Positions 1 to 47,300 of a stretch of 64,000 nt of DNA are shown here, in pieces (within the stretch, counting starts at the first letter, position 1; every line of letters begins with the position of its first letter). A program made the translations under genes and the position numbers. The DNA is from Zancudomyces culisetae HAW-14-8 (lineage: Eukaryota > Fungi > Kickxellomycota): NCBI GenBank assembly GCA_052426225.1, contig JBNJNM010000006.1:2728001-2792000 (forward strand), in the 5' to 3' direction. The notes under the pieces were generated by a model. The model saw nothing but the letters and a program-made list of their open reading frames with translations, was not told where the DNA came from and searched no databases.

Positions 1-318
1 GACAACAGACTCTTTGAAAGACAATTAGAAAGAACCCATCGCAGCCGCTTCGCCTTTAACCAGCCTACAATACCCAGATCAGACCCTACAAGTCCACACC
101 AACCACGCACACAGCCCATGGAAATTGACGGAACATCCACACGCCGCCCACCCATAACACCTGAAGAACGCCAAAGACGCCGTGACAACAACCTCTGCTT
201 GTATTGTGGTAACCCTGACCACATCATAGCGATCTGTCCCAGACGCCCACAAAATAGATCCACAATTACTCTCGCTGCCACCACCACACAGGAAAACTCT
301 CCAGCCCAGAACGTTTAA
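1..318 (+). CDS. gag: Gag C-terminal part with zinc knuckle (5' truncated by window edge)
   Basis: PMEID motif and [14 protein letters not shown] (CX2CX4HX4C); stop TAA at 316-318. Confidence 0.9.
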
Positions 319-335
319 AGGACGTACCTCTGGGC
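291..335 (+). promoter_or_regulatory. Putative -1 ribosomal frameshift signal (G_GAA_AAC, 6-nt spacer, stem-loop)
   Basis: GGAAAAC 291-297; GCCCAGA 304-310 pairs with TCTGGGC 329-335; inner stem ACGTTT/GGACGT. Confidence 0.65.
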
Positions 336-3300
336 TTTATCGAACATTACAAACCGTCCTCCCCTGGTCCAATCCCACAAGTCCTGAACCTTTATTCCAC
401 TTCTTATCAACCGGAATCTACCCACCAAGATTTTGACGACTGCCTTATTAATTCTAAAATTTTTGAACCTGAACCTGAACCTGAACCTGAACCTGAATCT
501 GAACCTGAATCTGAACCTGAACCTGAATCTGAACCTGAACCTGAATCTGAACCTGAACCTGAACCTGAATCTGAACCTGAACCTGAACCTGAACCTGAAC
601 CTGAATCTGAACTTGAATCCTATATGTTATCTGAATATTCATCATACCTTGACTCCGATTCCGAAAATGAATTGGACCTCGAATCCCATCTCGTACTTAA
701 TAATTTACCATCTGCAAGAACAAACTCGAACAACTTTGATGATATCAATACTTTTACAATTGATCAACCACTGACGTCTATAATGACTTCGACTACTAAC
801 GAACATTTAGTAATCCCTGTTACCTTATTCATAGCCAACAAGAGCTTAAAACTAAATGCTATGATCGATTCCGGTGCCACTAGCTGTTTTATTGACTCCG
901 AGTTTGCTATTAAAGTTAACATCCCGCTACTAAAGAAAGAAGTTCCTATCCCACTATTAGTAATCGATGGTAGATCAATTTCATCTGGATCTATCACTCA
1001 CAACACAATTCCTTTACAACTACAAACATATCACCATCACGAAACGATTAGTTTTGATGTAACTAAGTTAGGTAAATACTCATTGATTATTGGTATTAAC
1101 TGGCTTAAACTTCATAACCCACAAATCGAATGGCCTAAGGACAAACTGGATTTTAACTCAGAATTTTGCAAAAGTAATTGTAATAATCCTTTACAAATAT
1201 TTGCAAACATTAGTGATCTGGATAATGCTCCTATGAATCTCGTAAACCACAATCATATTGATTCGAAATATGTATCCATCCCCCCTGAATACCTAGACTT
1301 CCAAGATATATTCGACAAAACCTTCTCCGATCAATTACCTCCTCACAGGTCATACGACCATAAGATACCCTTAGAACCTAATTCGGTACCGCCATTTGGA
1401 CCCATATACTCCCTATCGGAACTAGAGTTATCGGCACTTAGAGAATATCTTAAGGAGAATTTAGATAAGGGCTTTATCCGATCTTCGTCGTCACCAGCCG
1501 GTGCACCTATACTATTTGTAAAGAAAAAGGATGGTTCGCTAAGGTTATGCGTAGACTACAGAGGGCTAAACAAAGTAACAATAAAGAATCGATATCCTCT
1601 ACCTCTTATCAGCGAACTCCTAGACAGATTCAGACAAGCTAAGATATTTACAAAGATAGATTTACGTGGCGCCTACAACTTAATAAGAATTGCTGAAGGC
1701 GAAGAATGGAAAACGGCATTCCGAACCCGGTATGGGCATTACGAATACCAGGTCATGCCTTTTGGCCTCTGCAACGCTCCTGCTTCTTTTCAACACCTTA
1801 TGAACGACGTTCTATCTGATTGTTTGGATAAATTCGCAGTAGCTTACTTAGATGATGTCCTTATATATAGTAACCACCTTGAAGATCACATCACTCACGT
1901 CCGAGAAGTACTTTCACGTCTACGAAAATACTCATTATATGCAAAATTAGAAAAATGCACATTTCATAAACGTAGCGTAGAGTTTTTAGGATACATTGTC
2001 TCTGATGACGGCGTACAAATGGACCCATGCAAAACAGATGCTGTTAACAACTGGCCCACCCCAACCTGTGTAAAAGATATTCAGTCTTTCCTCGGGTTTG
2101 CAAATTTCTATCGCCGATTCATCAAAAACTTTTCTGCAATCGTTACCCCAATTACTAAACTACTTCGAAAAAATATGAAGTGGGACTGGTCCGACATAGC
2201 TCAATCCTCGTTCGAAGCTCTGAAAAAGGCTTTCACCTCTGCACCAATATTGAAATACTTTGATCCGAACAAACCTATTACAGTAGAAACTGACGCTTCC
2301 GATTTTGCTCTGGGAGGAGTAATTTCACAGACAGACGAAAATAATATTATGCATCCCATCGCATACTATTCACGGAAGCTACAGCCCGCCGAATTGAACT
2401 ATGAAATTTACGATAAGGAGCTTCTTGCAATAGTTGAAGCATTCAAGGAGTGGAGAGCATATCTGGAAGGTGCGCAACATCAAATAACAGTTATTACTGA
2501 CCACAAAAACTTGGTCTACTTCACTACAACGAAAACACTGAACCGACGACAAGCAAGATGGTCCGAACTTCTAGGAAATTATGACTTCGTAATCAAATAT
2601 GCACCTGGATCTCAAAACGGAAAACCTGATGCTTTATCTCGTCGTCCGGACCATTACCCTAAAGAGGGGGATGGTGCTATAACTAACAGTAACGTTCTAT
2701 TAAAGCCGGAACAATTGATTATTTCAGCAGTAGAACGACTACAAAACAATGATAACTTGATAACAGATATTGAAAATGCCTACTCAATAGACCCCTACGT
2801 CTATACCATATTCAAACACCTACAAAACCCTAAGCTTAGACCTCCACCTATTTTATCAAAACGCCTGTCTGACTTCAAATTAACCAATGGACTACTATTT
2901 TACAAAGGACTACTTTATGTACCAAATAGTAACAACATCAAGCTACAAATACTCTACAACCATCATAACTCAAACACTGCTGGTCACTTAGGAAGATTAA
3001 AGACCTTAGAACTCATCACCAGAAATTATTACTGGCCAAGCATGAGAAGATTCGTAGAAGATTACATAGCAACTTGCGACCTATGCAATAGATGCAAAAT
3101 TTCACGACATAAACCATATGGATACCTGCAATCCCTACCAGTGCCCCTTAAACCATGGGAGTCCATATCTATGGATTTTATTGTGAGCTTACCTGACTCC
3201 CATGGATATAATGCTATCTTAGTTGTTGTAGATCGGTTTACTAAGATGTCCCATTTTATACCAACAACAAATACGATTAGTGCTTCCCAAACTGCTAAAC

Positions 3301-4241
3301 TGTTTCTCACTCACATATACCGACTACATGGTCTCCCCACAAATATTGTATCTGACAGAGGTTCTATATTTACTTCAAAATTTTGGTCAACCCTCATGAA
3401 ACTACTAAACATAAAAACAAATTTATCCACAGCCTTTCATCCTCAGTCAGATGGCCAAACCGAGCGTGTCAACCAGGTTTTAGAACAATACCTACGATTC
3501 TACTGTAACTACAATCAAAACAACTGGTCCGAGCTGCTGTCGCTAGCTGAATACTCCTATAACAACTCACAACATTCTACAACGAAGTTCAGCCCTTTCT
3601 TCGCTAACTTTGGATACCATCCAACTTCTCTCCCCAACTTAAAGATATCATCCATATCACATTCACCTGCAGCATCTGACCTCGCTTCCATCATTTCTAT
3701 TACACATAAAAAGTTGATCCAAAATATAAAAGAAGCTAATACTAGATATGCTAAAGCATATAACAAGAAAAGAATGCAACCCCCTGACTTCCCTATCGGT
3801 TCATTTGTATGGCTCAACAAAAAATACATCAAAACTACTAGACCAAACAACAAGTTGGATTATACTAAAATTGGTCCATACAAAGTCATCCAAAAAGTTG
3901 GAAACTCTGCCTACAAGCTGGAACTGCCGGACTCCATGCGCATACATCCAGTATTCAATATCTCACTTCTGGAACCAGTCGTAAGAAAAGAAACCATGGA
4001 TCGTATTCAAGAAACCCCACCCCCTATAGTTATAAATGGTCAAAATGAATATGAAGTAGAACAGATACTTGATAGCAGAGTCAGGTACAACAAGCTTGAG
4101 TACCTAGTTGATTGGAAGGGATACGATATAGACTCTAGATCGTGGGAACCTGCCATAAACTTAGAAAATGCACAAGAGTTAGTCAAGGACTATCATCTGC
4201 GGAACCCCACAAGACCTAAGCCTCGCGGTGCTCACCATTAA
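291..4241 (+). CDS. pol: Pol polyprotein in the -1 frame relative to gag (protease, RT, RNase H, integrase, chromodomain)
   Basis: Frame is open from at least 291 into the 624..4241 ORF; motifs [43 protein letters not shown]. Confidence 0.95.
465..620 (+). repeat. Hexamer tandem repeat (GAACCT/GAATCT) x26 encoding Glu-Pro/Glu-Ser in the pol frame
   Basis: 156 bp of 6-mer units, in frame with pol. Confidence 0.95.
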
Positions 4242-12701: not shown

Positions 12702-12783
12702 CCATAATTATAATAATATTTAATCTTCAACATAATAATTGGTTTATGCTTTGTTGTAATTCAATAAAACTCGTGCTGTGACA
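12702..12783 (+). repeat. Partial copy of the short (~135 bp) LTR
   Basis: TTGGTTTATGCTTTGTTGTAATTC and AATAAAACTCGTGCTGTGACA match the 3' half of the family. Confidence 0.65.
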
Positions 12784-14120
12784 ATGGGGGCCACACAGCA
12801 TAGACCTCTTCACTTCATCCAACAACAACCAACTTCCGGTATACGGGAGTTGGTACAAGGACCCGAAGGCTGCAGTCCAGCACGCTTTCCGAACGACATG
12901 GTAGACGTGGAAGAGCTCATACATATGCCCTATATGGAACTTACTTATGTGGGTCTTTAAAAAGATCAAGGAGGACCGGGCAAGAGCCACACTGATTTCA
13001 CCAAACTGGCAATCAGCAATGTGGTACCCGTCGTTGAGGAGGATTTGCTGCAGGAGATCCATACAAGTACCAGCAGCGACAGTAATGGCAGTGTGACCCA
13101 CATCGATAATGGAGAAGAACAAGGTCCGGACACTAATGACATGGAGGGTAGACGGGGATCGAAAAGGAAAGAACTCTCAAGCGAAGCTCTCGAACTTATG
13201 GCAAAGTACCCAAGAGCTACAAAAAGAAGAATGCAAGCGGAAGGGATAGTCAACAAGTTCATGCGATGGAGTGAGAAGCGAAAGGACAGTACAACCGGAG
13301 TAATCAGTATAATTAACTATCTAACAGAGATATACAGAGAAGGCAGACTATCGCCTCAAACAAACATTAACTACAAGTCGACATTGGTAGGAAAAATCGA
13401 TCATGACAACACTACCGCAGAGGAGCATAAAATTTTAAACGAGTTTACAAAGACCATGAAGGAATTAAGCTTTAAGAGTTTCATTGACGTATATTATAAC
13501 ATAAAAATAATTATAGAGGAAATTAAAATTGGGGGGAAAATGGAAGCCTAAGCATATCACAGTTAACAAGCAAAGTTTGCTGGCTACTCGTGGTTACCGG
13601 ATTCATGAGACCGAGCGATCTGTTCTGGGCGGACGACGCACAAACCAAAGTAACAGAACACCATATAAGCATAATAGTGATTGCTCCTAAAGAGAAGAGA
13701 GAAGGGTCACCAATTATCAAGGAAATAAATATTAATAGCTACAGTGACCGAAGAATATGCCCAGTAGCGGCATATACGGAATACAAGAAAAGAACATGAC
13801 AAGTGAGCTGTGTCATAGAACAAAAAAATATCCAAATATTTTATTACATAGAATATTGAGACACTAATAATTATAACAAACACTTGTCTACTAGCTCAAT
13901 AGGACGATATATTAAAGAATAAAATAAGTTGATGATATTACCAGCTGGAACAAAAAAGATCAAAGCATGAGCACAGGGTGCCTAGTTGGCATTACGAGCA
14001 GGTAAAAGTCGAGGAAAGATTGTCTACCATGCATTCTGGTTCAATCTTAATGTATTCAATAACCACTACCGCCTGAGCCGGTTTTCAAACGTAAAAATCA
14101 CACAGGCGATACTGGGCTAG
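12784..14120 (+). mobile_element. Degenerate DIRS-like retrotransposon fragment (methyltransferase-like domain and tyrosine recombinase)
   Basis: WGPHSIDLFTSSNNNQLPVY..DPKA (DIRS MT-like); GFMRPSDL, APKEKREG, CPVAAY (YR motifs); stops and frameshifts. Confidence 0.75.
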
Positions 14121-14818
14121 GAAGTTCACAATTCGATACCACTCCGTGATATACAATGAGTTTCAAAAAAGTCTCAAAATATTGATAAAATTTTTTTCAA
14201 GTGTAATATCTCGCACAATTTTATCCAGAAATTACGCATTTATTAATTAGTATAAATCACAAATAATAATATTAATTTTTTATATATTGTGATTTTTTTG
14301 GTAAAAAACTCATTCTGAAATTGATATTTGAAAAATATAATATAAATGTAACAATTTTGGTAATTTTTCGAAAAAAATTTTAAAATATCTAACTTTATGT
14401 ATTCTAATCATAAATTTCTAAATCTTGTTCTGTGACATATATATTATTTTTAAATATTACTATATAATTTTTTAAAAAATGATATCTGAAATACGTAAAC
14501 GTGATATAATAACGCGACAATTGAATGTAGAAGCATGTAACAGCCAATATGTTACATGATACGACCCATAATATATGATATTCATATTCTATATAACCAT
14601 TTGTTTTATGATAATGTATTAATTACCTATTAATTACAACATGTCCTTACAATAAAAATCGTTCTGTGAAATTTTGGATTCTTCTAACTCCTAGTTAATC
14701 AGTCTAGTTTAGTTATAAAAATAAATTAAATAATCATATGATTATGGGTAATAATGTGCCAAATACTCCCGAAATAGTATAGTTTTCCGGAGCCTCTGAA
14801 CATTTTTTTCCCTTCATG

Positions 14819-15205
14819 TGTTGGCTTTAATTGAGTTTATTTAGAATTTGCATTTTGAAGAATATTAACTTCATAAATGAAGAGAATAATTTACACTGCA
14901 CTTCAATAGACACTTTCTGTCGGGGTTTAAATAATTGAAGAGACAACTAAAAAATAAGAAAAATTATTGTTGTGCATGAATTATTATACGTTAGTGATGT
15001 TTCAGATAATAATCACATCCAGACATTTACATAGATGTAATCCAGTAGAGAATTTATATATAGATGTAAACCATATTAATCACGTTATCATGTTATGTTC
15101 TAATTCTGTTATTGTAACTTTACGTGTTCATTTTACAATAAAATTTGAAATAATAATATATTAATTATAACTGTTAAAGCTAAAAATATTAACTAATTCA
15201 TAATA
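14819..15205. mobile_element. ~390-bp AT-rich insertion in the gag remnant (possibly an eroded solo LTR)
   Basis: Absent from the homologous copy at ~24120-24135; begins TGTTGG; CATG/TATG at the flanks. Confidence 0.4.
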
Positions 15206-17632
15206 TATGGCTCAGATCCGCTGACAGTTTTGAGCAAAATCAGATTCATTACCTAAAGAAAAGAAAAGGATTGATTTTATCTGTGCCCACTTCTCAGTCC
15301 ATGTCGTCACTTGGTTTGAAGATATTCTTAATCCGAAGCCAAGCTCCCAGAAACCACACCTAATCTATTGTCCTCATATGAAGAGTTTATATAAAGTTTC
15401 AAGATCAGATTCTCTGACCCCGGCCACAAATCACGTTGCCGATGACAAATCTGCTGAAAAAAGACATCTAATTCATTTGGGGTCCTGATCAGCAAAAGTC
15501 ATATGACACACTGAAAACCATGCTTACGACTTCACCCGTGTTACGGTATCCTGACCCCGGTAAGCAGTTCCTAGTTGAGACTGACGCATCAGACTATGCC
15601 ATTGGTGCAATTCTGTCGCAAGCCGACGAGAAAGGAGACTTCCGCCCCTGTGCTTATTACTCTTACAAGCTCAAGGCAGCAGAACTAAACTACAATGTTT
15701 ATGATAAGGAGCTACTAGGAATAGTAAAGGCACTTAAGGAATGGAGACATTACTTGGAAGGCGCTCGACACCAGTTCATCGTTTTGACAGACCATAAAAA
15801 CCTTGAAACCTTCAAAACTTCAAAGGTACTCAATAGACGCCACGCAAGATGGTCATTGGAGTTCAGCCGTTACGACTTTGTGATCACCTATAGGCCTGGA
15901 AAGCTTGGAGAAAAACCTGACATTTTATCACGTACTTGGATCATGACCGCGCCTTACAAGACAAAACTATACTCCCAGCCTCAGTTTTTATCGACAGTCT
16001 AATAACCACCAATCTGTTTCTCCTAGATGATCTCGGCCTACAAACACAAAATGAGCGAATAGAATTAACTAAAAGGGCAGAAACAGAAGCAGCTAAAAAA
16101 CATCTCGCTGTAGGATCAACACCAGACAATCTCATTACTCTGGGAGATTTAGTAGTGGTACCTAAAGCATCAGTATTTAAAGTGATCAGTTCAAGGCATG
16201 ATAGCAAGTTGACAGGCCACTATGGATACAAAAAGACAGTAGAACTACTGAAAAGAGACTTCTGGTTCCCACATATGCATCGTTCAGTCAAGGAATTCAT
16301 CGCAGGTTGCGACAGATGCAACCGATCCAAGACATCAAGGAAGAAAAAGCAAGGACTTCTTCAGCCACTAATCGCTCCTGATTCGCTATATAAATCTATT
16401 TCAATGGATTTCATCACTGAGTTGCCCCCTTCAAAAGGGAATACCACAATTTTAGTGGTTGTAGTTCGGTTCAGTAAAATGAGCCATTTTATACCACTAA
16501 AGAAACTGCCTTCATCTATGGAAACTTCTGAAATCATCCTCAATAACATCATCAGACTCCACGGTTTACCTGAAGAGATCATCTCTGAGCGAGGCTCTCC
16601 GTTTGCATCAAAGTTTTGGAAAGCTCTTTTTAACACTTTAGTTGTAAAAATCAAGCTCTCAACAGCGTTCCATCCTGAAACTGATGGACAAACTGAAAGA
16701 GTAAATCAGACTCTGGAATAGTATCTCCGTTTTTTCTTGCCATACCAACAAGATAATTGGACAGACCTTCTGCCATTGGCAGAATTTGCCTATAACAACT
16801 CTACTCACGAATCTACTGGATCATCCCTGTTCTTCATCAACTATGGATACCACCCACGCTTTGATCCACCTTTAATCAATAGCCATTGTTATGCCTTCTG
16901 TGCAAGAAAGAATCAACCAAATCCATCATATTTGGAAAGAAACCAATAGGCAAATCACTCTCGCTTCTTCAGCATTCAAAAAATCTGCAGACAAGAAAAG
17001 AAGAAAAAATCCTGAATATACTATAGGTGAATAAGTATGGCTATTAACAAAGAATATTCAGACTACTAGGCCTAGTAAAAAACTGGATTATAAGAAAATT
17101 GGACCATTCAGAATCAAAGAAAAGCTCAGTGATTTAGTCTACAAACTTGACCTCCCCGTCTCAATGAAAATACATCCAGTCTTTCATGTTTCACTATTGG
17201 ATAAATACTCACCTCCAGTGATTTCTGATCAACCAGCCACGCCGGAACCCATTATTATCAACAATGTATTAGAGTATGAAATTGAGGAAATACTCGATTC
17301 AAAGCTTATAAGAAATAAACTTTATTACTTGATACATTGGAAGGGATACGATATTAGTGAACGAACTTGGGAACCAGAAGCTTATATATCTGCATACCAA
17401 CACATTATTGTTTTCCATACTAAATTCCAATCTAATCTAAAATAAATATGCAATTATCAAAAAAAAATAAATATTAAAATCTTAAAAAATAATAATCTAA
17501 ACAACATACAACATTCAACAAAAAAGACCCATATCAAAAGAATAATTAAATAGTTTGTAAAAATTTTTCAAAAATTTCAAATTATAGTATAAAAATTATA
17601 ACTTCCCCTGAACAAAATGAAAAATAATAATC

Positions 17633-17865
17633 GAGTGAACTCGCTTAATTTATAAGCGAGTTTGCTGTAAGATCGTCAGGGAGAAGACGAATCAGCTGGT
17701 ATGAATGTGGGGCTATAGGCGGCCAATGTGCGCAAGCGAAAGCGAGCACCGGAGCGTCCCACCTCTTCTAAATTTCTTTTAGGAAGCCGGTACTGATTTG
17801 CGGAACACCGAATGGTGTGGCTCTCAACGTTAATTTCGATTAAAAAATATATAGTCGAATTTCCC
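17633..17865 (+). ncRNA. Candidate structured cis-RNA element in the retrotransposon 3' UTR (copy A)
   Basis: GC-rich island with about 9 predicted helices and a GNRA loop; ~90% identical by eye to 24288-24518. Confidence 0.55.
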
Positions 17866-18132
17866 AACTTTGATTTAATATAATTTCATATATCTCTCAA
17901 TAATATAAAAATTATTTAAAATAAAACATATTTATATCATCGTATTGTTCATTATTATAAAAGTACTTTTAATACTTCTTATGGAGGGGGATAATGTAAC
18001 AGAACATAATCTAGTGATACTACCCATTATTATTTTATACATTTCTTCTTCTATATAATCATTGGTTGTATGCGTAGTTGTAATTCTTAGAAAATTAGAA
18101 CCTGTTTAACCAATATAACTCGTTTTGTGACT

Positions 18133-19110
18133 ATAGTTTCTCGAAAATGGTGCATTTATCCCGTTAAAAATCTACCCACCGCATTAGAAACCGTCGACGC
18201 TTTCATATAGAAAGTTTTCATAATACATGGCATGTCAGACGAAATCATTTCTGACAGAGGCACGCAATTCACATACATATTTTGGCGCAGTCTGTTCAAA
18301 CAGCTCAGAGTATCGATAAAACTTTAATCCACTTTCCACCCAGAAACAGACGGGCAGACTGAAAGGACTAATCAAACTGAGAGCTAAACCTCAGAATGTA
18401 CAGCAATTATAAACAAGACAACTGGACAGAACTCCTCCCGTTAGCCGAATTTGCATATAACAACGCGAATCAAGCTTCACACTTAAGTCGCCGTTTTTTG
18501 CTGTATATGACTACAACCCAATAATGGACCCACCTATAGCTAATTCAGACGACACCCCACAGGCTCGCGACAAGATAAAAACAATGGAACGGATCCACAA
18601 ACAGCTAAAAAAGAACCTATCCAACGCCATTAAAAACCAAAAAAAGTTTGCAGACAACAAGCGTTCTAATCCCCCAATATTCAAAAGCGGTGACATGGTA
18701 TGGCTAAATTCAAAAAACATCAAGACCGAAAGACCCTCTCAGAAACTCGATTGGAAAAAGCTGGGACCGTTCAACGTACTAAAGAAAATTAACCAGGTAA
18801 CTTACAAACTGGCTCTCCCAGCTAGCATGAAGATCCATAATAGTTTTCACATTTCACTGTTAGAACCATACCACGCTAATAAGATTCCCAAATGAATCCG
18901 TCCTCCACCCCCGCCAATAATCGTAAATAACCGGGAAGAATTAGAAGTAGGTGAGATTTAAACAGTAAGACTTTGAGAAAAAAAATTTACTATAAGATCA
19001 GATGGAAAGTTCAAGAACCTGAAGAGGACACATGGGAACCTGTGGAACACTTAAACTGTCCCGAACTGGTAGCAAAATTCAACCAAAATACAACAGAAGC
19101 AACTTAATCA
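18133..19110 (+). pseudogene. Chromovirus integrase/chromodomain fragment from another element
   Basis: SDRGTQF, HPETDGQTERTNQ, LGPF, WEPVEHLNC motifs with stops and frameshifts. Confidence 0.85.
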
Positions 19111-23853: not shown

Positions 23854-24810
23854 AAGATAATCCAATATTGTTACTTCTTAATTCCCTTATAAATGATATA
23901 TTAAATATCTAAATATCATTTGTTTATGCATATGAATAATTCACCTATGTATTACAACCTGATTATACAATAAAACGCGTTCTATGACATTATGTAATTC
24001 TTCTAACTCCTAGGAAATCTGTCTAGTTTAGTTAAAAAATTTATTAAATAATCAAAAAATTATGGGAATAGAGACAAATACACCCGATAAATAAAAGATT
24101 TCCGGAGCCGCGAAACAATTTGTTTCAATCGTGGCTCAAACTCGCGGACAGTTTTGGTCATAATCCGATGCATTTACTACTTTACAAATTCAATACCATA
24201 ACACAATTAATTTTTGAAAATTGTATAATATTTCAAAATATAGTAGAAATATGATAACATTCCCTGAAAAAATATTAAATATTAATAGAGTGTACTAGCT
24301 TAATTTATAAGCGAGATTGCTGTAAGAGCGTCAGGTAGAAGACGAATCAGCTGGTAAGAATGTGGGGTTATAGGCGGCCAATGTGCGCAAGCGCAAGCGA
24401 GCACCAAGTGTCCCACCTCTTCTAAATTCCCATTAGGAAGCTGGTACTGATTTGCGGATCACCGAATGGTGTGGCTCAAAACGTTAGTTTCGATTAAATA
24501 TTCAAAGTCGAATTTCCCAAAATTCGATAAATATATATTTATAAATATATCAATATATTATAAAAAAAAAAACTAAAACAATCAAAACAAAAAATATATA
24601 TATAATTATATTTATAAAACTCAAATTTACCAATAGTATAAAAGTATAAAAATATTATTTCTTTGAAGGAGGGTATTGTAACCGCCAATAATGTTACATC
24701 ATACTACAAAATTATATTATACATTTCTTCTATATAATCATTTATTATATGCTTTATTGTAATTTTCTAAGAATTTAACCTGTTTAACCAATAAAACTCG
24801 TTCTGTGACA
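23854..24810 (+). mobile_element. TRIM-like non-autonomous miniature LTR element (copy B)
   Basis: Eroded 5' LTR ~23854-23989; 3' LTR 24677-24810; PPT GAAGGAGGG; ~690-bp non-coding interior colinear with both ends of copy A. Confidence 0.8.
24288..24518 (+). ncRNA. Candidate structured cis-RNA element (copy B)
   Basis: Homolog of 17633-17865; GNRA loop reads GCAA instead of GAAA. Confidence 0.55.
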
Positions 24811-26245
24811 TGAGGTCTTAAACTTTCTGATGGGCGAACTGCTTCTGGAACTCATGGCTTGTTGATTGTGGAATTTGCGTGGACATGTGGAGACGGTGTG
24901 TATATCTCCACCACAGTAGAAACAGAGACGGTTATACATTCTGTTATCTCTTTCAAATTCGGAAACTCTTTTGATCCCCATTGAGTCCACGTCCATACGG
25001 GTTATTTCTCGGTTGGAGAAGTGAGAGGGCGGAATCCATGGTTTTATCTTGATTTTCTCTCTTTGCGCTGATAGATGCGGTTATCTATCCGGATACAGAG
25101 TGCGGCAAAATCTTCAAATCCTGGCGGGTGTGATTCTAGGGTCGATAGGGCGTCTTTGATTTCGTCGTTGAGACCCTCATAATAAGACATGAGCAGTGCA
25201 GGCTCATTATAGTCGGTCTCTAGGGCAATGGACTTGAACTGGTTCGTGAACGCTAGGCACCGTGATTTCCCCTGGCGGAGGTTGTTTAACTTGTTTTGGG
25301 CTACCCAAACCGCGTTTGGTTCCCCAAAGGTGCGGTCAAGCTGTGCCACAAAGTTATCGTACTGGAACAGGATCGGATGACGGGATTCTTGAAGGGTTCG
25401 GAACCAGGTCTGTGCCCCCTCGGTCAACAGCGTGCCTATGAACAGGACTTTTACGTGATCGGTCGGGAAACGGCTAGGCTGGAGCTTGAAGACTGTGGAA
25501 ACTGTGGATAAGAAGTTTTTTACATTGTCCTTTCTGGACCCTGAAAACTTCTCTGGTGATGGCACCTTGGGTTCTGGGATCAGTCCTCTTTGGACATTGG
25601 CGGACTGGCGGAGCGTGTCTACTTCTTCTGTGAGTCTGGCCATTTGGTTCATGAGAGTTTGAACCATCTCATTGGTTAAGATTGGTTCTTCGGACATGAT
25701 TCAAGAGAGAAAAATATTATGTTAAGACTTGAATATTTAAGATTAAATTATTTATTACTATTAATTATTTAGAAAAATATTGTATTCAATAGTGAATAAG
25801 ATATTTTTCTCTGAAGTTCTCTTTCGATGGATTTCGAAAGGGTTTTTATACTTTTACTCCAGAGATTTTTTCATATAAAATTTTCTTAAGTAAAGTTGCT
25901 ATCAAATTATAAATTTGACTATTAAACTTATGAGTAACTGATGTGATTAACTACCGTGAATTTAGTGTGTCAATGATTGCGTCATTCATGTTATTCTGAC
26001 GATTCTTTGAATTATTAGTTTCGGAATTCTTTCTAGGTTTCTTATTTCCTAAAATGGTCTGTGGATATTATTATAACAAATTTCATCGAGAAATTCATTT
26101 TTTCTTGACTTGGTTAGATTAATTTAATAATTTGTACTTAGTTACATTTAATTAATTTGTAGTAGTTACATTATAGTAATTTGTATATGGTTACAATTAT
26201 ATTTTGTAACCTTCTTGATTTGGTCATGGAGAATTATGTAAACAT
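24811..26245 (-). mobile_element. 5' portion of a chromovirus related to element 2 (5' LTR, PBS, gag)
   Basis: gag ORF 25044..25697 (PEKFSG, WFRTL, GLNDEIKD) continues after a frameshift to CFYCGGDIHTVSTC; LTR ends CTTAACA at 25720; outer LTR boundary approximate. Confidence 0.85.
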
Positions 26246-26273: not shown

Positions 26274-28800
26274 TCATAAAAGTCTTCTTACAAATTCATA
26301 AAGAGTTGTTGCTTGCGCTACACACTCTTCACGGCTGCGAAAGCCTGCTTGTTCCTTTGCTAACAGCTTCACTCTGTTATCCTCCTTGTTGAGTCTTGTT
26401 GCAACTATCTTTGCAACAAGTTTAACCATGGATGGAATGAGTGAAATGCCCCGATAGTTGTTGGGGTCTGTGAGGTCCCCCTTTTTGGGCACCGATACTA
26501 CAATACTGGTGCTCCACCTCTTGGGTATCTCTTCCGTCTCAAAGATTCTTGTTACCATTCTAAATATTGCGACAGCTAGCGGCGAGGTTGGCTCTTCTTC
26601 CACTTGCACCAGCTTCCATATTTCGTTTGGGATCCCGTCTATCCCTGCTGCTTTGTTGTTTGGGGTATATTTTAGGACTTCCTTAATTTCATCCCACCTT
26701 ATTTCATCTGCACAGTCTTCTATATCCTGTAGTTGCTCAAATTCCATTTCCTCCCATTTTTTGGGTTTCTGCTATTGCCCGTGAGGTCTTTAGCAAGATC
26801 CCCGAAATGATCCGCTCAGATTCTTTTTTTGATTTCTTCCTCTGACCACCTCTCCTAGTTTATTTTGAATCGGTCCGCTACTAATACTGATTGATACCCT
26901 TCCATTCCTCGCTTTTATCCAGCTCCATAGTTGCTCGGTTTGTTCTGGGTTAGGTACATACTCGCTCTTTCTATATCCTTTATGTAAGCCTTCCGCATAT
27001 CTCTTTTTATTTTCTTGTTTCTTTCTCTTTTACACTAATAAACTTTTTCTCTACTGAATCATCATTCAAAAGTTTTTTATATAGTGCTCATCTTTTCTTG
27101 AATATCCTGATTGTGATTTATGATAATATTTTTGTTGTGTTTGCGGGTCTATTGCCCACTTCGTCGTATTCTTCGGCTGATTCTTTTACTGCTACTTCCA
27201 GTTCTTTGGCCATTATTTCCGTATCATCTAAGGCCATCAGCGCTGAAAACCGATTATTGGTTTTGTATTCTTCCGCGTTTTCTAGGATAGCCTTAATATT
27301 CATCTTACTCTTCTTTTTCTCAGCCTTTAACTGCTTCATTGACCACTTTGCCTGTACTGGCAAATGGTCTGATAAGTCGAGTGACTTGTCTACCTTGCAG
27401 CTTTCTGGTCTTTCTTGGAACCCTGAATAAAAGATGTGATCGATCATCCGGCCCATCTTTCTCCCTACTCTCCTTGTTCCTGTCGCATTAGTGATTATTG
27501 TCTGGTTAAATGATATACCAGTCTTTGTCATTAATGCAGTAGCTCCTCTCTTATCCATATTAAAGTCCCCTAGAACTACCGTTTTAATTTCTTTATTGTT
27601 ATTCTTTAGCTTTATGGTGTTCCACGAGTGTTCCCTTTGCTTGTTTTCTTCACAGCCCTGCTGATGGAATGTGTACGTTAATGACCACAGTCACCATCTT
27701 AGACCCATCTTCGTATATGCCTATGAATTTCCTATCATCCAGAATGGTGTCGATTTATATTTCTCTATACTGAGACCAGATTTATCTCTCACGGCTATCA
27801 GTAATCCATTTCCTCCTCTTTCCAGTTCAAATTTGGACTCAATAGACGTGTATCCTGCCAATTTGCATCTATAAGTTTTTTTACTTAGTAAAGTTTCTTG
27901 TAAAGCTAAGATATCTGGCCCTTCCTGAGCTATCACGTGCTCTAGTACCGCTTTAGATCCTTTAATACCTCGTATGTTGTATGTCCATATATTAATACTA
28001 TTATTTTTGTTTATTTTATGCTGTATGGGCTGGTATGTGGCCCCTCTTATGTTTTTTGGTCTCTCCAACCTTCCATTGCCCGAATGTCTTCATTAGTTTA
28101 CTTTTTTTTTTTCGCTGATCTCGTGATTTGCACCCTTTTTCTCGATTATCTCGTATCTTAACGCTTGTTGGATTGTTTATTTTTTTTTACTTAAGGTATC
28201 AGGATATTACCCCCCCTCATACCTAATTGCCAGTTTTATTGAGCTCATCAATGTTCCATAACAGGAGTTTTGTAACAGCCATAATGTTACATCTAATACC
28301 CATAATTTTATTTTACATTTCTTCTATATAATCATTTGTTTTAAGCATTGATGTAATTCTTAGAAATTACATTTTGTTTAACAATAAAACTCGTTCTGTG
28401 ACAAGTTTTTGCCTCCTGTTATCCATTTTTTCCGGTTGTCCTGTATATGTATTTAAGTTATATATGCACTCTAGTGACGCATTTTGGGGTCCCCAAGTGG
28501 TCATTTCTAGTACATTTGGTCCCCGCTGAGTCGAGATTTGGTGATTAGTCTTCCCTAATTTAATCCTCATTGCCGCTGAACTCAGCGACATGATTCAGTG
28601 CATCCTGAAAATCGCCATGAGTGTGGTCCTGGGCTGGAACCCCCACTTGACCACTTTTTTCCCGACTCGTTTCGGATTCTGAATCTTCATCCATCTCATG
28701 CCTTCGCTCGATATGTCTGAGCCAATACCTTAATGAGCCGGGTTTGGAGTTTTCTAGCTTTGTAATTGTATCAGCTTCCTTGGTCATAATTTTGGTGGAA
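26274..28800 (-). mobile_element. Degenerate LINE: ORF1 remnant, APE endonuclease and RT N-terminus
   Basis: WTYNIRG, ILALQET, GDFN, IDHIF, SDHLPV (APE); KAAGIDGI, PKKGD..PNNYRGISL, QAGFR (RT). Confidence 0.9.
28271..28403 (+). mobile_element. Solo short LTR (133 bp)
   Basis: TGTAACA...TGTGACA with perfect TSD AGTTT. Confidence 0.9.
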
Positions 28801-29206: not shown

Positions 29207-29345
29207 TGTCTCATAACGAGTTTATTGAATAAACAGTTTGTAATTCTTAGGGAATTACAACAAAGCATAAACCAATTGATTATATAGGTGATAAAATATA
29301 TAATTTAATTATGTGTAATATGTTGAAATATTAATTGTTGTTACA
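29207..29345 (-). mobile_element. Solo short LTR (139 bp)
   Basis: Reverse-complement match to the family; perfect TSD GTATC. Confidence 0.88.
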
Positions 29346-32753: not shown

Positions 32754-33036
32754 ATGCGCCAATATGGCTTTTTAGTATTGTTTTTTGTTTAGTTTTCGAG
32801 TTATTCTTTAGTCCGCTATTCACATGACATGTAAACTATTTTTATTATCACTTTTGATTTTTCACTCTCATTTGCTGATTTCATTTTCGATTTATCTATT
32901 TTGATAATAAATTTCAACAACTTTAGTTAAAAATTTTTTATCATTGTAGCTATACATTACTTATAAATATTAAATATCAAAACACTTGAATCAATACCAG
33001 ACTTTGATATAATCTGTTGGTAATATATATCTAATA

Positions 33037-34173
33037 ATGCTGAGTATTCAAAGATTCAATAAATTAGCCACAAGGTTGGCTAACCTGAATACACTAGTCT
33101 ACAAAAACAGCATCTCGGTCACGGAAATCACGAAAAATGTTAAATTTCAACAGCGATTCATGTCGGTTACAAAAGACGATGGTCAGTTCAAAACATGGAA
33201 ACCCGTCACCCCTGGTGTACGCCACAAAAAAATGGCATCTCGCGCTCATCTTTGGAAAGGAAAACCAATTCGTACTCTTACAGTTGCCAAACGAAGAACT
33301 GGTGGTAGAAACAACACTGGGAGAATCACTGTCAGGCATAGGGGTGGAGGTGCCAAGCGACGTATCAGACTTTTAGACTTTTTCCGAAAAGATCAAGGAA
33401 TTCAAGAAGTAGTCCGATTGGAATATGATCCTGGACGCACAGCACACATCGCATTACTCAAACATTTGGAAACCAAAAAGTTTTCATATATACTCGCACC
33501 GGAGGGGCTCAAGCCTGGTATGACCGTACAATCATATATGTATCTAAGCAACTCTGTCAGCAATGGCAAAAACAAAAAAAACCGTAGTGTATCCAGAAAA
33601 TCAGATTCCAACCAAAACTCGGCAATTCCAAATACATCACTGAATTCTAATGAGCTACAAGAAGATGATAGCGTCGAAAGAATGCGTGAACTTAGCAACC
33701 TTACTAGATCTATCAAGGTTGAGGTTGGAAATTGCCTCCCCCTAAAACTGATTCCCCCAGGCTCAACCATACACAGCATAGGTTTACATCCCGGTGATCG
33801 TGCTCGTCTTTGCCGTTCAGCAGGTGCCAGTGCTCAGCTTTTATACACTGCCCAACACGGTACAGCTCAAATCAAGCTATCCAGTGGTGAGGTTCGACGT
33901 ATCCCAGTCGACTGCTGTGCCACAATTGGAACTGTTAGCAATTCGAACCACAAATACGAAGTAATAGGTACTGCTGGTGCCAATAGGCGTCGTGGATGGC
34001 GTCCTACTGTCAGAGGTACTGCTATGAACAAGCATGATCATCCTAATGGTGGTGGTCGTGGTAAGAGTAGAGGTGGAAGACAGCCCACAAGTCCTTGGGG
34101 CAAGTTGGCCAAGGGCGGTAAAACAAGATACAAGCTCAACCCGCTGGTCATTCGCCACAGAAATAGAAAATAA
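33037..34173 (+). CDS. RML2: Mitochondrial ribosomal protein uL2m
   Basis: GGRNNTGRITVRHRGGG, EYDPGRTAHIAL, RPTVRGTAMN..DHPNGGG; N-terminal presequence. Confidence 0.96.
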   Translation: MLSIQRFNKLATRLANLNTLVYKNSISVTEITKNVKFQQRFMSVTKDDGQFKTWKPVTPGVRHKKMASRAHLWKGKPIRTLTVAKRRTGGRNNTGRITVRHRGGGAKRRIRLLDFFRKDQGIQEVVRLEYDPGRTAHIALLKHLETKKFSYILAPEGLKPGMTVQSYMYLSNSVSNGKNKKNRSVSRKSDSNQNSAIPNTSLNSNELQEDDSVERMRELSNLTRSIKVEVGNCLPLKLIPPGSTIHSIGLHPGDRARLCRSAGASAQLLYTAQHGTAQIKLSSGEVRRIPVDCCATIGTVSNSNHKYEVIGTAGANRRRGWRPTVRGTAMNKHDHPNGGGRGKSRGGRQPTSPWGKLAKGGKTRYKLNPLVIRHRNRK

Positions 34174-43691: not shown

Positions 43692-44319
43692 AATGGAGGG
43701 ATAGAGATGGATACACTTGAACCGTTGAGTTGGTCTGTTTTCTAGTCTTAGCGGTACTCTCTTTATTCAATGTTTCTGCTTGTGAGTATCGAATTACATT
43801 GTTGAATCGGAGATTATATTCGGTTTTTACTGTTTTTAATTTATTTACAAGAGTGAAGCACATTTAGATGAAATCATGTTGATATCGCGAAATTAGCATA
43901 AAGTTGAAATCACGTAACAAGCTAAAAATGTCCAAATTAATAATAATAAATAACAAACAGTAAACATGCAAGTAAATAAACTTGAAATAAAATTGAAATC
44001 CGAGAAAAAGATGCAATTATTTACATTCAGAATTAGCAAATAGCACTATTTAGCTCAAACCAGAGCCAATTTCTAAAAATAATAAAATAATGGTGATAAA
44101 AAAAATAATATACATTATGAGGGGGTGACTTTACATAAATTAAAACACCCGCTATTTGATGAATAGCAAAGGCGCACAAAAAATAAAATAAAATAAAATA
44201 AAATAAAATAAAAAACTCTAGTGCAAATTCGAAGAACAAGTCAATTATTGTATTTTGAATCTGGGGATATATATACTAGTGAGATCTGTATAATTAGAAA
44301 AGAAAAATACGGCTAAAAA

Positions 44320-47300
44320 ATGAACCAGGTTGATGGGGACGAATTTATTGACATTGAGGGGCTGGATATAGAGAAAGAGCTCCAGAACATAGAGATGCGT
44401 TTGGGAAAGAGAGATGCGGATGCAGGAAATCAGGTAGTAAAATCGGTGGATCTTGAGAAAAATGTAGATTCCGAGAAAAAAGAAAAAAATGGAGACAGCA
44501 AGAACGAAGAGGAAGAGGAAGAGGAAGAACAGGACGAGGACGAGGAAGAGGACGAGGAAGAGGAAAATGGTGACAATATGGATGAGCTTAACCAGGATGA
44601 TTTGGAAGCGTATTTTACACAGGTTGATGATATAGGTTCAGTGGACCTTGGAGATATCAATTTTTCGAAAATCTTGGAAGATTTGCAGATAATTGGGGCA
44701 AACGCGGGAGGATCGGGAACAGGAGCAGGCATTGAAACAGGGGCAGGGGCGGATATGGGAATGGGGATGGGGATGGGAATTGGAATGGATATGGGGATTG
44801 TAGGGATTGATGGGGCAAGTTCAGTGGCAGAGGAGCAACCCAAAGAGATCGAGGAGCAGCAATTACAAGAAAAGATTATTGATAAAGGAGAAGAAACAAA
44901 AATTATAAATGAAATAGATAGTATTTTGGAAAGCAAAATATCACAAATAGGGCTTAAGCGGGCAAGGACGCTGACAATAGGAGATAATAGGGCGCAGTCA
45001 CATCCACCACTACCATCGCAGTCTTCATCACTGCTAGAGCCAAGTGAACAGGGACAGGGAGGTAGCAAAGAGGGAGACGAAAATATGATGAATGGGAATA
45101 CAAAAAACAGCGAAGATCAAAATGGCGACGAGACAGAAATTGCGCGGATTAAGAGGGCGAGAACGGAATCACCAAAAATGGCGGCACGAGATGTTGTTGT
45201 TGAAATAGAGAGAAGAATTTCGAATGTAGAAGCGGAAGAAAACAGCAATACTCCTGTGGAAGGGGTAGAAGAAGGCGAGAAGGGAGGAGAAAAGGAGAAG
45301 GAGAAGGAAACCGAAGATAAAACACGGGATGAAGAGGAGAAGAAGCTAGAAGTAGAGCAACGGGCGATCGTAGGTCAGGGAGCGGAAGAAGCAGAAAATG
45401 TAGAAACAGAAACAGAAACGGGAGAAGGAGAAGAAGCAGGGTCAGGAGCGGTAGAGATGGAAAACATTGAAGTTGAGAACAAAACTAATGGACTTGAGAA
45501 TATGGAAGTAGAAAAGAAGGAGGAGGAAAAGACAAGCGAAGAAGTGGAAATTAAGACAGAGGCAAAAGTAGTGGAAGATGTGGAGATGGTTGAAGATGAT
45601 GGTAAAGGATCGGAAGAAGAGGAGATGCAGGCAAAAATCAAAAAAGCGGTTCTAAAGGCAAATATGTACTACAAAGGAGCGAATTTTGAGCGATACCGAA
45701 TGATGATGGGGCAGATAGGCCTGAGAGGAGGAATGGAAGTGGCAAAAAGCATAAAACAAATGTACGAAGGGCAAAAGTGGGGGAGAAAAGCGGTGGAAGT
45801 AGAATGGAATAACAAAAGCAATGTAGTATCGGTGTGTTATGCAGAAAAAGAACAACAAGAAGAGGAAAAGACGAGAGCAGTTGGGGCAGGAATAAGGGTG
45901 TATGCGGTAGATATGGGAGTAGATGAATTAAAGGAAGTGGGGACGATTAAAATAGAGGCGATGGAAAGCAACGAGGGGGAGGATGGCATGGCGCAAAATG
46001 AGTTGTATGAGTCTGGTGAGGGAATAAATAGGGTCAATAATGGGGAAAATGGAGGAATTGTGCGGGGCAAGATAGAAAGCAAGGCATTTTGGGATGGAGA
46101 TAATAGGGGAGGGGGAGGAGGTAGAGTCGCATTTGTGGATCCAAGAGGAAAGATAGAAATATATACATGCAAAGAGAAGAAAATACAGACGATTGATATG
46201 GAGTGTCCAGTAGCTGCAATAGAGTGGCTTCAACAAAGCAAGAAACATGTAGCTAGAATATTTGTGGATGGGGAAAAGGAAAAAGAAAAGGAAAAGGAAG
46301 AGGAAGAGATGGAAAATATAGAAACAAAGACAGAGACAGATATGAGTGTGGGTGCGGGTGTGGGTAATGTGGAAATGGATATTGGGGGGTATATAAGAGG
46401 CCGGAGGAATGGGTTTATGTACACAAATGTGGTTTTGACATGTGCAGGAAGGTTTTTGCTGAACAACAATGACAGAAAAGATAAAGCTGGGTCGGCAGAT
46501 ACAGCGGATGAATTGGAGCATGATGGACAGCAGTACATTGATTTAGGTGTTCCTTATAAGGATCAGTGCTCTGGAAACGAGACAGGAGTAGCAGAAAGTA
46601 GGGAAAGCGATATGGAAGGTGTGTGGATGATAACACATGCGGATATCCGGTTGGTCAATTACAAATATTTTGTAGTTGCGGCGGTGTGGAAGTGGATAAA
46701 ACAGGAGGAGAGTGGACAGGAACAAGAGGTAGAAGTAGAGGTAGAGGTAGAGGTAGAGGAGCGATGTGTATTGTATGTGATAGAGTGGAAGTGTTCGGAG
46801 AATAATTTGGAGCTATTGGATAGTGAATATGTATATGTACACACACAGTCTAGGTACGGACAGCAAGATGGTGGTATTATTAATACTGAAGACACAGATG
46901 ATATGATAGGAAAGAGGACAGAATTAGGAAGATGTAGTCAAAACCAAAAGGCAAAATCGAGTGGTAGTATTCAACATGTTAAACTTATACAACAAACCAA
47001 CCCAAATCTATATAATGGCGGGAGAAATAGTAAAAATGATAACGATAACGATAACGATAACGAGGATGATTCGAAAAAGTTGCTTGAATTGCCAATAGTG
47101 GCATTAGTAATCAGTCATATTGACAATTCAAATCAAGAAAGCCAAAATATTGAGAATGATATTGGTATAGAATCTAACGTTTTGCAATTTTACAAAACAA
47201 AGCTTGACAAAAACCAAATAGTACATGTTTACAAGAACAACAGCATTAATATCAACGACATTTGTACCAGTGTCGAGAGCTCAGGCCGAGGACTAGTAAA

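What the first reader, a model, noticed from the sequence alone, without database searches (positions are those of the whole stretch)
17633..17865. Conserved multi-helix RNA element in the 3' UTR of a chromovirus, retained in its miniature derivative
Seen: between the pol stop and the PPT lies a ~230-nt GC-rich island in otherwise very AT-rich DNA. A second copy at 24288-24518 has about 16 differences over the ~190-nt core (counted by eye), while the flanks and LTRs are much more diverged. The sense strand folds almost completely: GAGT/GCTC closing stem, AACTCGCTTA/TAAGCGAGTT hairpin, CTGTA/TGCGG, CGTC/GACG hairpin, AATCAG/CTGATT, CTGGT/GCCGG, GTGGGG/TCCCAC, GTGC..GC-GAAA-GC..GCAC, CTTCTAA/TTAGGAAG, ACACC/GGTGT, and TTCGATT/AGTCGAA. 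The tetraloop changes GAAA to GCAA (still GNRA), and the G-U pairs favour the sense strand. I do not recognise it as tRNA, 5S, SRP, hammerhead, HDV or an intron. Inference: an undescribed cis-acting RNA module (packaging/dimerisation signal, a nuclear-export element analogous to the MusD transport element, or a new ribozyme) needed for mobilisation.
Basis: partly seen in the sequence, partly recalled or inferred. Interest (0 to 1): 0.82.

Follow-up and report, generated by a model that had tools for sequence, protein, structure and literature searches.

The report
Conserved folded tail in fungal retrotransposon
A 230-base GC-rich stretch in the tail of a fungal jumping gene is better conserved between its two copies than the DNA around it and matches no catalogued RNA family; it is predicted to fold and likely acts as a handle that routes the element's RNA to its particles, but two copies cannot prove the fold or the function.

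Summary
The island is real. In a Zancudomyces culisetae window, two defective copies of one chromovirus family carry a 45% GC block between pol and the PPT, among 11-17% GC flanks. The copies differ at 22 of 225 island columns against 83 of 348 in the linked flanks, PPT and LTR (p=1.4e-5); G/C sites differ at 7 of 103 against 32 of 72. It is non-coding and has no Rfam match. The fold is only partly supported: 0 of 64 pairs are compensatory, copy B folds no better than shuffles, and non-circular tests range from p=0.72 to p=0.007 (post hoc). No third copy or homologue was found in the window or in 108 fetched loci, none from this family; the host genome was not available. Best reading (0.5): a selected cis-acting RNA in the position of the MusD transport element, likely routing genomic RNA to particles. 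A sense-strand self-cleaving ribozyme is unlikely, as it would cut off the PPT. That the mini element was itself mobilised is not shown.

The parts
14536..14671 (+). 5' LTR of defective element A
   Evidence: TGTAAC start, aligns with the other LTR copies
14672..14830 (+). Leader shared with element B, with a T-rich primer-site-like stretch and a possible gag-start remnant
   Evidence: 81% identical to 23992-24124 over 14672-14809; local alignment
15200..15426 (+). Weak gag remnants, followed directly by RNase H (protease and RT absent)
   Evidence: profile hits E 0.003 and 0.035 among six frames; no PR or RT hit by blastx
15427..17445 (+). Broken pol: RNase H, integrase, SH3, chromodomain; 3 stops and frame changes
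   Evidence: Pfam, blastx, stop count
17633..17859 (+). GC-rich conserved island, copy A (conserved block extends about 17598-17866)
17638..17662 (+). 5' hairpin (P2): strong in A, 3 of 10 pairs broken in B
17688..17800 (+). Central predicted domain: stacked stems P5-P6, three-way junction with P7 (leading to P8/P9 and the GNRA loop at 17738-17741) and hairpin P10
   Evidence: pair probability 0.75-0.99 in A; P5, P6, P7 and part of P10 recur when B's domain is folded alone, but P5, P6, P8-P10 do not in B's whole-island fold
17806..17817 (+). Hairpin P11
   Evidence: probability 0.99 in A, 0.74 in B
17835..17859 (+). Hairpin P12: stem unchanged, loop variable
   Evidence: probability 0.95 in A, 0.81 in B; 5 differences in the 11-nt loop, none in the 7 pairs
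17983..17991 (+). Polypurine tract of A
   Evidence: sequence
17995..18132 (+). 3' LTR of A; abuts an integrase fragment of another element
23856..23989 (+). 5' LTR of mini element B (degenerate start)
23990..24204 (+). Leader of B and possible gag-start remnant, up to the deletion junction
   Evidence: gag profile E 0.18, not significant
24288..24512 (+). GC-rich conserved island, copy B
24665..24673 (+). Polypurine tract of B
   Evidence: sequence
24677..24810 (+). 3' LTR of B; abuts a minus-strand gag of another element
28271..28403 (+). Solo LTR of the same family, 5-bp target duplication AGTTT
29207..29345 (-). Solo LTR of the same family, 5-bp target duplication GATAC

Best explanation
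The island is a conserved non-coding module in the 3' UTR of a Zancudomyces chromovirus family that is predicted to fold in the genomic RNA and likely works as a protein-binding handle routing the full-length RNA out of the nucleus and into particles. Shown: position between pol and PPT, no coding frame, excess conservation, no family match. Inferred: (1) selection acted while the family was transposing, since elements that lost it would copy less well; (2) the functional form is sense RNA, with the stacked stems and three-way junction at 17688-17800 plus hairpins P11 and P12 as scaffold; (3) the long invariant unpaired stretches (17714-17727 in the P7 loop, the P8/P9 internal loop) and the GNRA loop would make tertiary or protein contacts; (4) the partner would be a host export factor or the element's Gag. 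Steps 2 to 4 are untested, and export cannot be told from packaging here.
For: Island 22 of 225 differences vs 83 of 348 in linked flanks, PPT and 3' LTR (p=1.4e-5); G/C sites 7 of 103 vs 32 of 72 (p=5e-9). Frames are not shared and a 1-nt indel lies in the core. With a fold made from A alone, 0 of 28 stacked internal pairs in 17686-17862 are broken in B against 4.05 expected (p=0.007; region chosen after seeing the data). Position matches the ~400-nt MusD element adjacent to the 3' LTR (PMC4588558 passages; PMC5767303 passages). The deletion in B ends about 85 nt upstream of the island.
Against: Two copies only; 0 of 64 pairs compensatory. A-only fold over the whole island: 11 of 71 pairs broken vs 10.3 expected (p=0.72); central domain 3 of 38 vs 3.7 (p=0.44); stacked pairs whole island 5 of 44 vs 6.8 (p=0.25), central 0 of 19 vs 2.2 (p=0.053), B-based 1 of 18 vs 1.3 (p=0.61); fold retention p=0.36. 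B's folding z is +0.26 and A antisense is as stable as sense. A/T sites are not significantly better conserved than in the flanks (15 of 122 vs 51 of 276, p=0.14). The G/C contrast is inflated by new G/C mutations in AT-rich flanks. No leader-island pairing above shuffles. A chromovirus with an intact pol frame in the same window has its PPT right at the pol stop, so chromoviruses in this host can lack such an element. The export precedents come from mammalian elements.
Confidence: 0.5

Rival explanations
1. No selected function: a GC-rich segment captured once by the family, later homogenised between these two copies by gene conversion or template switching, so that it merely has a more recent common ancestor than its flanks.
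For: Both elements look mosaic: LTR pairs 67-77% alike, no target duplications, 5' LTRs group together by 8 sites vs 1 and 1. Most non-circular fold tests are not significant.
Against: Conversion would also lower divergence in loops, yet P10 and P12 loops differ at 3 of 7 and 5 of 11 sites; GC stays at 45% among 11-17% flanks; high identity starts and ends near the GC block.
Confidence: 0.14
2. A DNA-level regulatory cassette (internal or antisense promoter, enhancer) or a captured piece of an uncatalogued host small-RNA gene, kept for its sequence and not for its fold.
For: Conservation is concentrated in G/C sites; antisense folds as well as sense; TRIMs are known to capture small-RNA promoters (PMC10886601, abstract and introduction); an unchecked note of this scan (e1-7825816) reads a similar 3' cassette in another fungus as promoter-like.
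Against: No tRNA, no 5S, SRP, RNase P/MRP or snRNA match at E up to 10; captured promoters in known TRIMs lie in the LTR; no shared downstream or antisense frame; differences avoid stacked pairs in 17686-17862.
Confidence: 0.13
3. An RNA stability element that protects the long 3' UTR transcript from decay, as the ENE does for Evade, by another structure.
For: A 3' UTR structure raises stability and mobility of the LTR element Evade (PMC12501189, abstract and start of introduction); same position.
Against: No U-rich internal loop: the sense strand has one U4 run, in a variable loop of A only.
Confidence: 0.12
4. A domesticated RNA: the island is kept by selection on the host after insertion, while the elements around it decay.
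For: If each element's two LTRs were identical at insertion, their 23-33% divergence would predict at least as much in the island; 22 of 225 has P of 2e-7 or less under that.
Against: A's pol has only 3 stops in 659 codons, which puts decay near 3% (0.6-8%) and rejects 12% (P=0.002); deviation at near-invariant residues 18 of 170 vs 12 of 170 for the intact pol; two solo LTRs 79% alike both keep perfect 5-bp duplications. So LTR divergence more likely reflects family diversity and mosaicism than age.
Confidence: 0.07
5. A ribozyme of an undescribed class.
For: Multi-junction predicted fold, GNRA loop kept through a change, long invariant unpaired stretches.
Against: No Rfam match; no hammerhead core; HDV-like descriptor hits are not shared by the copies and arise in 9 of 40 shuffles; cleavage of the sense RNA here would remove the PPT and 3' repeat needed for copying (inference).
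Confidence: 0.04

Closest known systems
MusD transport element (MTE) and IAP RTE of mouse LTR elements
   Same: Non-coding, multi-stem RNA next to the 3' LTR of an LTR element, acting in cis on the unspliced genome (PMC4588558, PMC5767303, PMC12786077; passages read).
   Different: Host is a fungus and the element a chromovirus; about 230 nt vs about 400 nt; no kissing loop or pseudoknot shown here; no export test; I did not compare the sequences directly.
ENE of Arabidopsis Evade (Copia93)
   Same: 3' UTR RNA structure of an LTR retrotransposon that promotes mobility (PMC12501189, abstract).
   Different: No U-rich internal loop here; larger, GC-rich predicted fold.
TRIMs, and Cassandra, Helenus, Ajax (TRIMp3)
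   Same: Copy B is under 1 kb, non-coding, with two LTRs and a PPT, and holds an RNA-like conserved module (definition in PMC10886601).
   Different: The module is internal, not in the LTR; no tRNA or 5S match; no target duplication; one copy seen.
Tcn1-like chromodomain Gypsy elements of fungi and non-seed plants
   Same: RNase H-integrase-chromodomain order; T-rich stretch after the 5' LTR with no obvious tRNA primer site, as for SM-Tcn1 (PMC2864245 passages).
   Different: In SM-Tcn1 no self-priming was found; the passages read mention no 3' UTR RNA element ('UTR' and 'untranslated' 0 occurrences). Clade membership of this element was not tested with a tree.
Retrozymes (non-autonomous LTR elements with hammerheads)
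   Same: Small non-coding LTR derivative with a conserved RNA motif (PMC4918200, search listing only).
   Different: No hammerhead core; motif not in the LTR.

Membership tests
Chromovirus (Ty3/Gypsy with chromodomain) | Chromodomain at the integrase C-terminus after RNase H and integrase core | tested here: met
   Pfam PF17917, PF00665, PF24626, PF00385 in order at 15472-17442
MTE/RTE-type transport element | Non-coding, adjacent to the 3' LTR | tested here: met
   ends 123 nt before the PPT in A; no shared frame
MTE/RTE-type transport element | Ordered multi-stem fold | tested here: inconclusive
MTE/RTE-type transport element | Long-range kissing loop and pseudoknot | tested here: inconclusive
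   only 5-6 bp loop-loop candidates common to both copies, no control for chance, no two-sided change
MTE/RTE-type transport element | Drives export of unspliced RNA through NXF1-type factors | not testable with these tools
   needs a reporter assay
ENE (poly(A) triple helix) | U-rich internal loop between two stems | tested here: not met
   no U-run of 4 or more shared by both sense copies
Hammerhead ribozyme | CUGANGA and GAAA core around three stems (motif recalled) | tested here: not met
   no joint match on either strand of either copy; no Rfam hit
HDV-like ribozyme | Nested double pseudoknot with catalytic C (descriptor recalled) | tested here: not met
   hits only in B sense flank and A antisense, not shared; 9 of 40 shuffles also hit
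TRIM | Under 1 kb, two LTRs, PPT, no coding capacity | tested here: met
   B spans 23856-24810
TRIM | Mobilised as a unit: target duplication and near-identical LTRs | tested here: not met
   no duplication; LTRs 67-75% alike
TRIM | Many uniform copies in the genome | not testable with these tools
   no genome held
Cassandra/Helenus/Ajax (TRIMp3) | 5S- or tRNA-derived sequence inside the LTRs | tested here: not met
   island is internal; ARAGORN 0 genes; Rfam nothing over A's island and 3' LTR to 18100 or over the whole of B
Any Rfam 15 family | Score at the family's gathering threshold | tested here: not met
   0 hits in the window; best E 3.8 near A, none near B at E up to 10

The most novel reading that the evidence does not exclude
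The island is the first member of a new class of large structured RNAs, a multi-junction GNRA-bearing domain of about 230 nt, that early-diverging fungal chromoviruses use as a 3' packaging or export switch (or, less likely, as a catalytic or host-domesticated RNA), conserved with covariation across Harpellales and sufficient to let protein-free mini elements travel.
Probability: 0.15. Interest if true: 0.8.

Novelty: new variant of a known kind. Interest (0 to 1): 0.4.

Why it matters
The cis-acting RNA elements next to the 3' LTR that I found described are from mouse elements (MTE, RTE) and a plant element (Evade ENE). My ten paper searches turned up no such element for a fungal chromovirus; the library lacks most subscription papers and I read no supplements. 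A compact element in a fungus would give a short, testable handle on how Ty3/Gypsy RNA is chosen for export and packaging, and on what a non-coding derivative must keep to be carried along. A 26-contig assembly of this species with 3.03 Mb of retroelements exists (PMC12611240 passages), so the key test, covariation across copies, is cheap.

Tried and rejected
Host genome: none held. Sequencing runs: none was listed, so no reads were laid. More copies in the window: blastn, covariance model and nhmmer find only A and B. Exact-pattern scans: viral contigs 0, 1 and 1 hits, metagenome contigs 0, prokaryote genomes 0 and 2; the four hits (L105-L108) do not extend under the model and L105 and L106 read as unrelated sequence. 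Integrase-related loci: 22 + 2 new viral (L104 matched 20 residues only) and the best 80 of 594 from 2 of 64 parts of the metagenome collection, at most 53% identical over the integrase. None holds the island by blastn (102 loci), by the model (L001-L100; L101-L106; 5 loci without filters) or by nhmmer (106 loci). The model rests on two sequences and would miss distant relatives, and none of these loci is from this family, so this is weak evidence of absence. Plasmids: no match; phages: 5 matches at E 0.8. Protein searches found no close member of the family: among the 120 listed in each, the metagenomic relatives reach 57%. Coding origin: a 69-aa antisense frame found 1 hit among 1.84 billion proteins, a tandem-repeat protein at 28% identity, taken as spurious. 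Leader-island pairing: no better than shuffles, 33 and 37 of 40 as strong. Palindromes: four 6-nt ones are shared by both copies, about the number chance gives by my estimate. Bacterial-type promoter and terminator scan: uninformative for a fungus. Resemblances to group I and II introns, RNase P/MRP, SRP, 5S, tRNA and SECIS were considered by eye from recall and dropped, as the order of parts did not fit and Rfam gave no match. Earlier scan notes: no look-alike sequence.

Full report
Context. An open frame at 33013-34173 is 100% identical over 87% of its length to mitochondrial ribosomal protein L2 of Zancudomyces culisetae, with Smittium next at 62%, so the window comes from this insect-gut fungus (Harpellales) or a very close strain. 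No genome was held and no sequencing run was listed, so only the 64-kb window gives copies of the element.

Anatomy. Element A has a 5' LTR (14536-14671), a leader, weak gag remnants, then RNase H, integrase, SH3 and chromodomain frames (15427-17445; Pfam; blastx) with no protease or RT hit, a 3' UTR, a PPT (17983-17991) and a 3' LTR (17995-18132). Element B (23856-24810) has LTR, leader, a deletion junction near 24205, the same 3' UTR, PPT and LTR. Homology between A and B covers 14544-14809 with 23862-24124 and 17548-18131 with 24205-24809. Two solo LTRs of the family with intact 5-bp target duplications lie at 28271-28403 and 29207-29345. The island (A 17633-17859, B 24288-24512) is 45-46% GC among flanks of 11-17%. 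A different chromovirus with an intact pol frame (258-4241) has its PPT at the stop codon and no such UTR. Among fetched relatives, a rough pattern found a PPT in 66 of 78 loci with a chromodomain end: 28 within 150 nt, 19 at 151-400, 19 beyond, so a long spacer is not rare.

Conservation. The copies differ at 22 of 225 aligned island columns and at 83 of 348 columns of the linked flanks, PPT and 3' LTR (p=1.4e-5). Sites that are G/C in A differ at 7 of 103 against 32 of 72 (p=5e-9); A/T sites at 15 of 122 against 51 of 276 (p=0.14). G/C sites elsewhere in this element therefore change faster, not slower, which argues against a lower mutation rate as the cause, with the caveat that new G/C mutations in AT-rich flanks inflate the contrast. 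The island is not coding: no frame is shared and a 1-nt indel lies in the core; the longest frame found only one repeat protein at 28% identity.

When did selection act? Each element's own LTR pair is only 75-77% identical pairwise or 67% in the multiple alignment. If these pairs were identical at insertion, the island would be far too conserved (P of 2e-7 or less), which would point to selection by the host. But A's pol has 3 stops in 659 codons, about 3% decay (0.6-8%), and deviates at 18 of 170 near-invariant residues against 12 of 170 for the intact pol. Neither element has a target duplication, and the two 5' LTRs group against the two 3' LTRs by 8 sites to 1 and 1. I read both elements as mosaics of a diverse family, with the island kept by selection during transposition and a few percent of later decay. 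This is inference.

Fold. I then used a 64-pair version that leaves out that outer P11 pair and one outer P10 pair and adds one P7 pair. On it 0 of 64 pairs change on both sides, 2 change to G.U and 3 break; paired sites differ at 5 of 128 and unpaired at 19 of 99 (p=0.0003), but this model was drawn with both copies in view. ViennaRNA supports P2 and P5-P12 in A (0.75-0.99), but only P4, P7, P11 and P12 in the whole-island fold of B, and gives P1 and P3 no support in either. Folded alone, B's central domain recovers P5, P6, P7 and part of P10. Against shuffles, z is -3.05 for A, +0.26 for B, -3.53 for A antisense, and -1.59 and -0.18 for the central domains; A's signal comes mostly from the 5' hairpin (-4.70), which B breaks. 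Tests that fold one copy and use the other as witness gave: whole island 11 of 71 pairs broken vs 10.3 expected (p=0.72), central 3 of 38 vs 3.7 (p=0.44); counting only stacked internal pairs, whole 5 of 44 vs 6.8 (p=0.25), central 0 of 19 vs 2.2 (p=0.053), central plus P11 and P12 0 of 28 vs 4.05 (p=0.007), B as reference 1 of 18 vs 1.3 (p=0.61), antisense p=0.49 and 0.60. The one significant value is from a region and rule chosen afterwards. The fold is plausible for 17688-17862, unsupported for the outer junction, and not established.

Known families. Rfam 15 gives no hit at gathering score in the window and nothing better than E 3.8 near A, nothing near B. ARAGORN finds no tRNA. Motif scans, with motifs recalled from memory, find no hammerhead core, no shared HDV-like topology and no shared U-rich loop on the sense strand.

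Relatives. No third copy is in the window. Six exact-pattern scans of viral, metagenome and prokaryote collections gave 0, 0, 0, 1, 1 and 2 hits, none extending. In 104 loci fetched through the integrase (L104 a 20-residue match only), at most 53% identical over the integrase, no island was found. The metagenome scan covered 2 of 64 parts and kept 80 of 594, and the model rests on two sequences, so absence is weakly tested.

Mechanism. A conserved non-coding block that survives in a derivative lacking nearly all coding sequence, just upstream of the PPT, fits a cis-acting element of the genomic RNA. [quoted passage not shown] A stability role has a precedent in the Evade ENE (PMC12501189, abstract and start of introduction), but the U-rich loop is missing. 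A self-cleaving ribozyme on the sense strand would cut the PPT and 3' repeat off the template and is unlikely (inference from the replication cycle, PMC10886601 part 1 of 6 and passages). I put 0.5 on a folded trafficking or packaging handle, 0.14 on no selected function, 0.13 on a DNA-level or captured cassette, 0.12 on stability, 0.07 on host domestication and 0.04 on a ribozyme. That B was mobilised as a mini element is not shown: it is one copy, with no target duplication and unlike LTRs.

Novelty. Ten paper searches showed no description of this motif or of a structured 3' UTR element in a fungal chromovirus; the assembly paper's passages (PMC12611240) give repeat totals only, and PMC2864245 (passages) does not mention UTRs. 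The library is incomplete and no supplement was read, so a repeat-library entry could exist. The kind of thing is known; this sequence appears undescribed. Verdict: real conserved island, probable RNA element, fold and function unproven; new variant of a known kind; interest 0.4.

Noticed in passing
window 23990-24005 and 14672-14690; LTR positions about 92-107: The stretch after the 5' LTR is complementary to a site inside the family's LTRs (10 nt for B's leader against solo LTR D, 8 against C, 7 against B's 3' LTR; only 5-6 nt for A's leader), as expected for self-priming; no tRNA-type site seen. No control for chance was run.
   Followed up: partly
window 14536-14671, 23856-23989 vs 17995-18132, 24677-24810: The two 5' LTRs share characters against the two 3' LTRs (8 sites vs 1 and 1), which independent retrotransposition does not predict; against the solo LTRs the grouping is unresolved (3, 4, 1). 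Mosaicism, a DNA-level duplication or alignment artefact remain open.
   Followed up: partly
window 18133-19100 and 24811-25700: Both 3' LTRs abut truncated pieces of other chromoviruses (an integrase-chromo fragment after A, a minus-strand gag after B) whose missing halves are not found upstream of the 5' LTRs.
   Followed up: partly
window 258-4241: Chromovirus with an unbroken 1327-codon protease-to-chromodomain frame, a Glu-Pro-type repeat near its start, and the PPT directly at the stop.
   Followed up: partly
window 12703-14120: A partial LTR-like stretch related to this family's LTRs runs into broken frames that by eye resemble the RNase H end and tyrosine recombinase of a DIRS-type element (motifs recalled; the 196-aa frame has no Pfam hit).
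   Followed up: no
window 44317-48906: Single 1529-codon frame, acidic and low-complexity in its first half, with no Pfam family.
   Followed up: no
window 17607-17611 with 17676-17680: A 5-bp pairing between an upstream conserved stretch and the P4 hairpin region is possible in both copies and chosen by RNAalifold; it competes with P4.
   Followed up: partly
L032 6338-7190, L037 6308-7133, L050 2956-3731, L061 6332-7037, L071 6338-7107: A group of metagenomic chromoviruses has 700-850 nt, GC-rich spacers between chromodomain and PPT with open frames of 100-210 codons, possibly extra genes.
   Followed up: no
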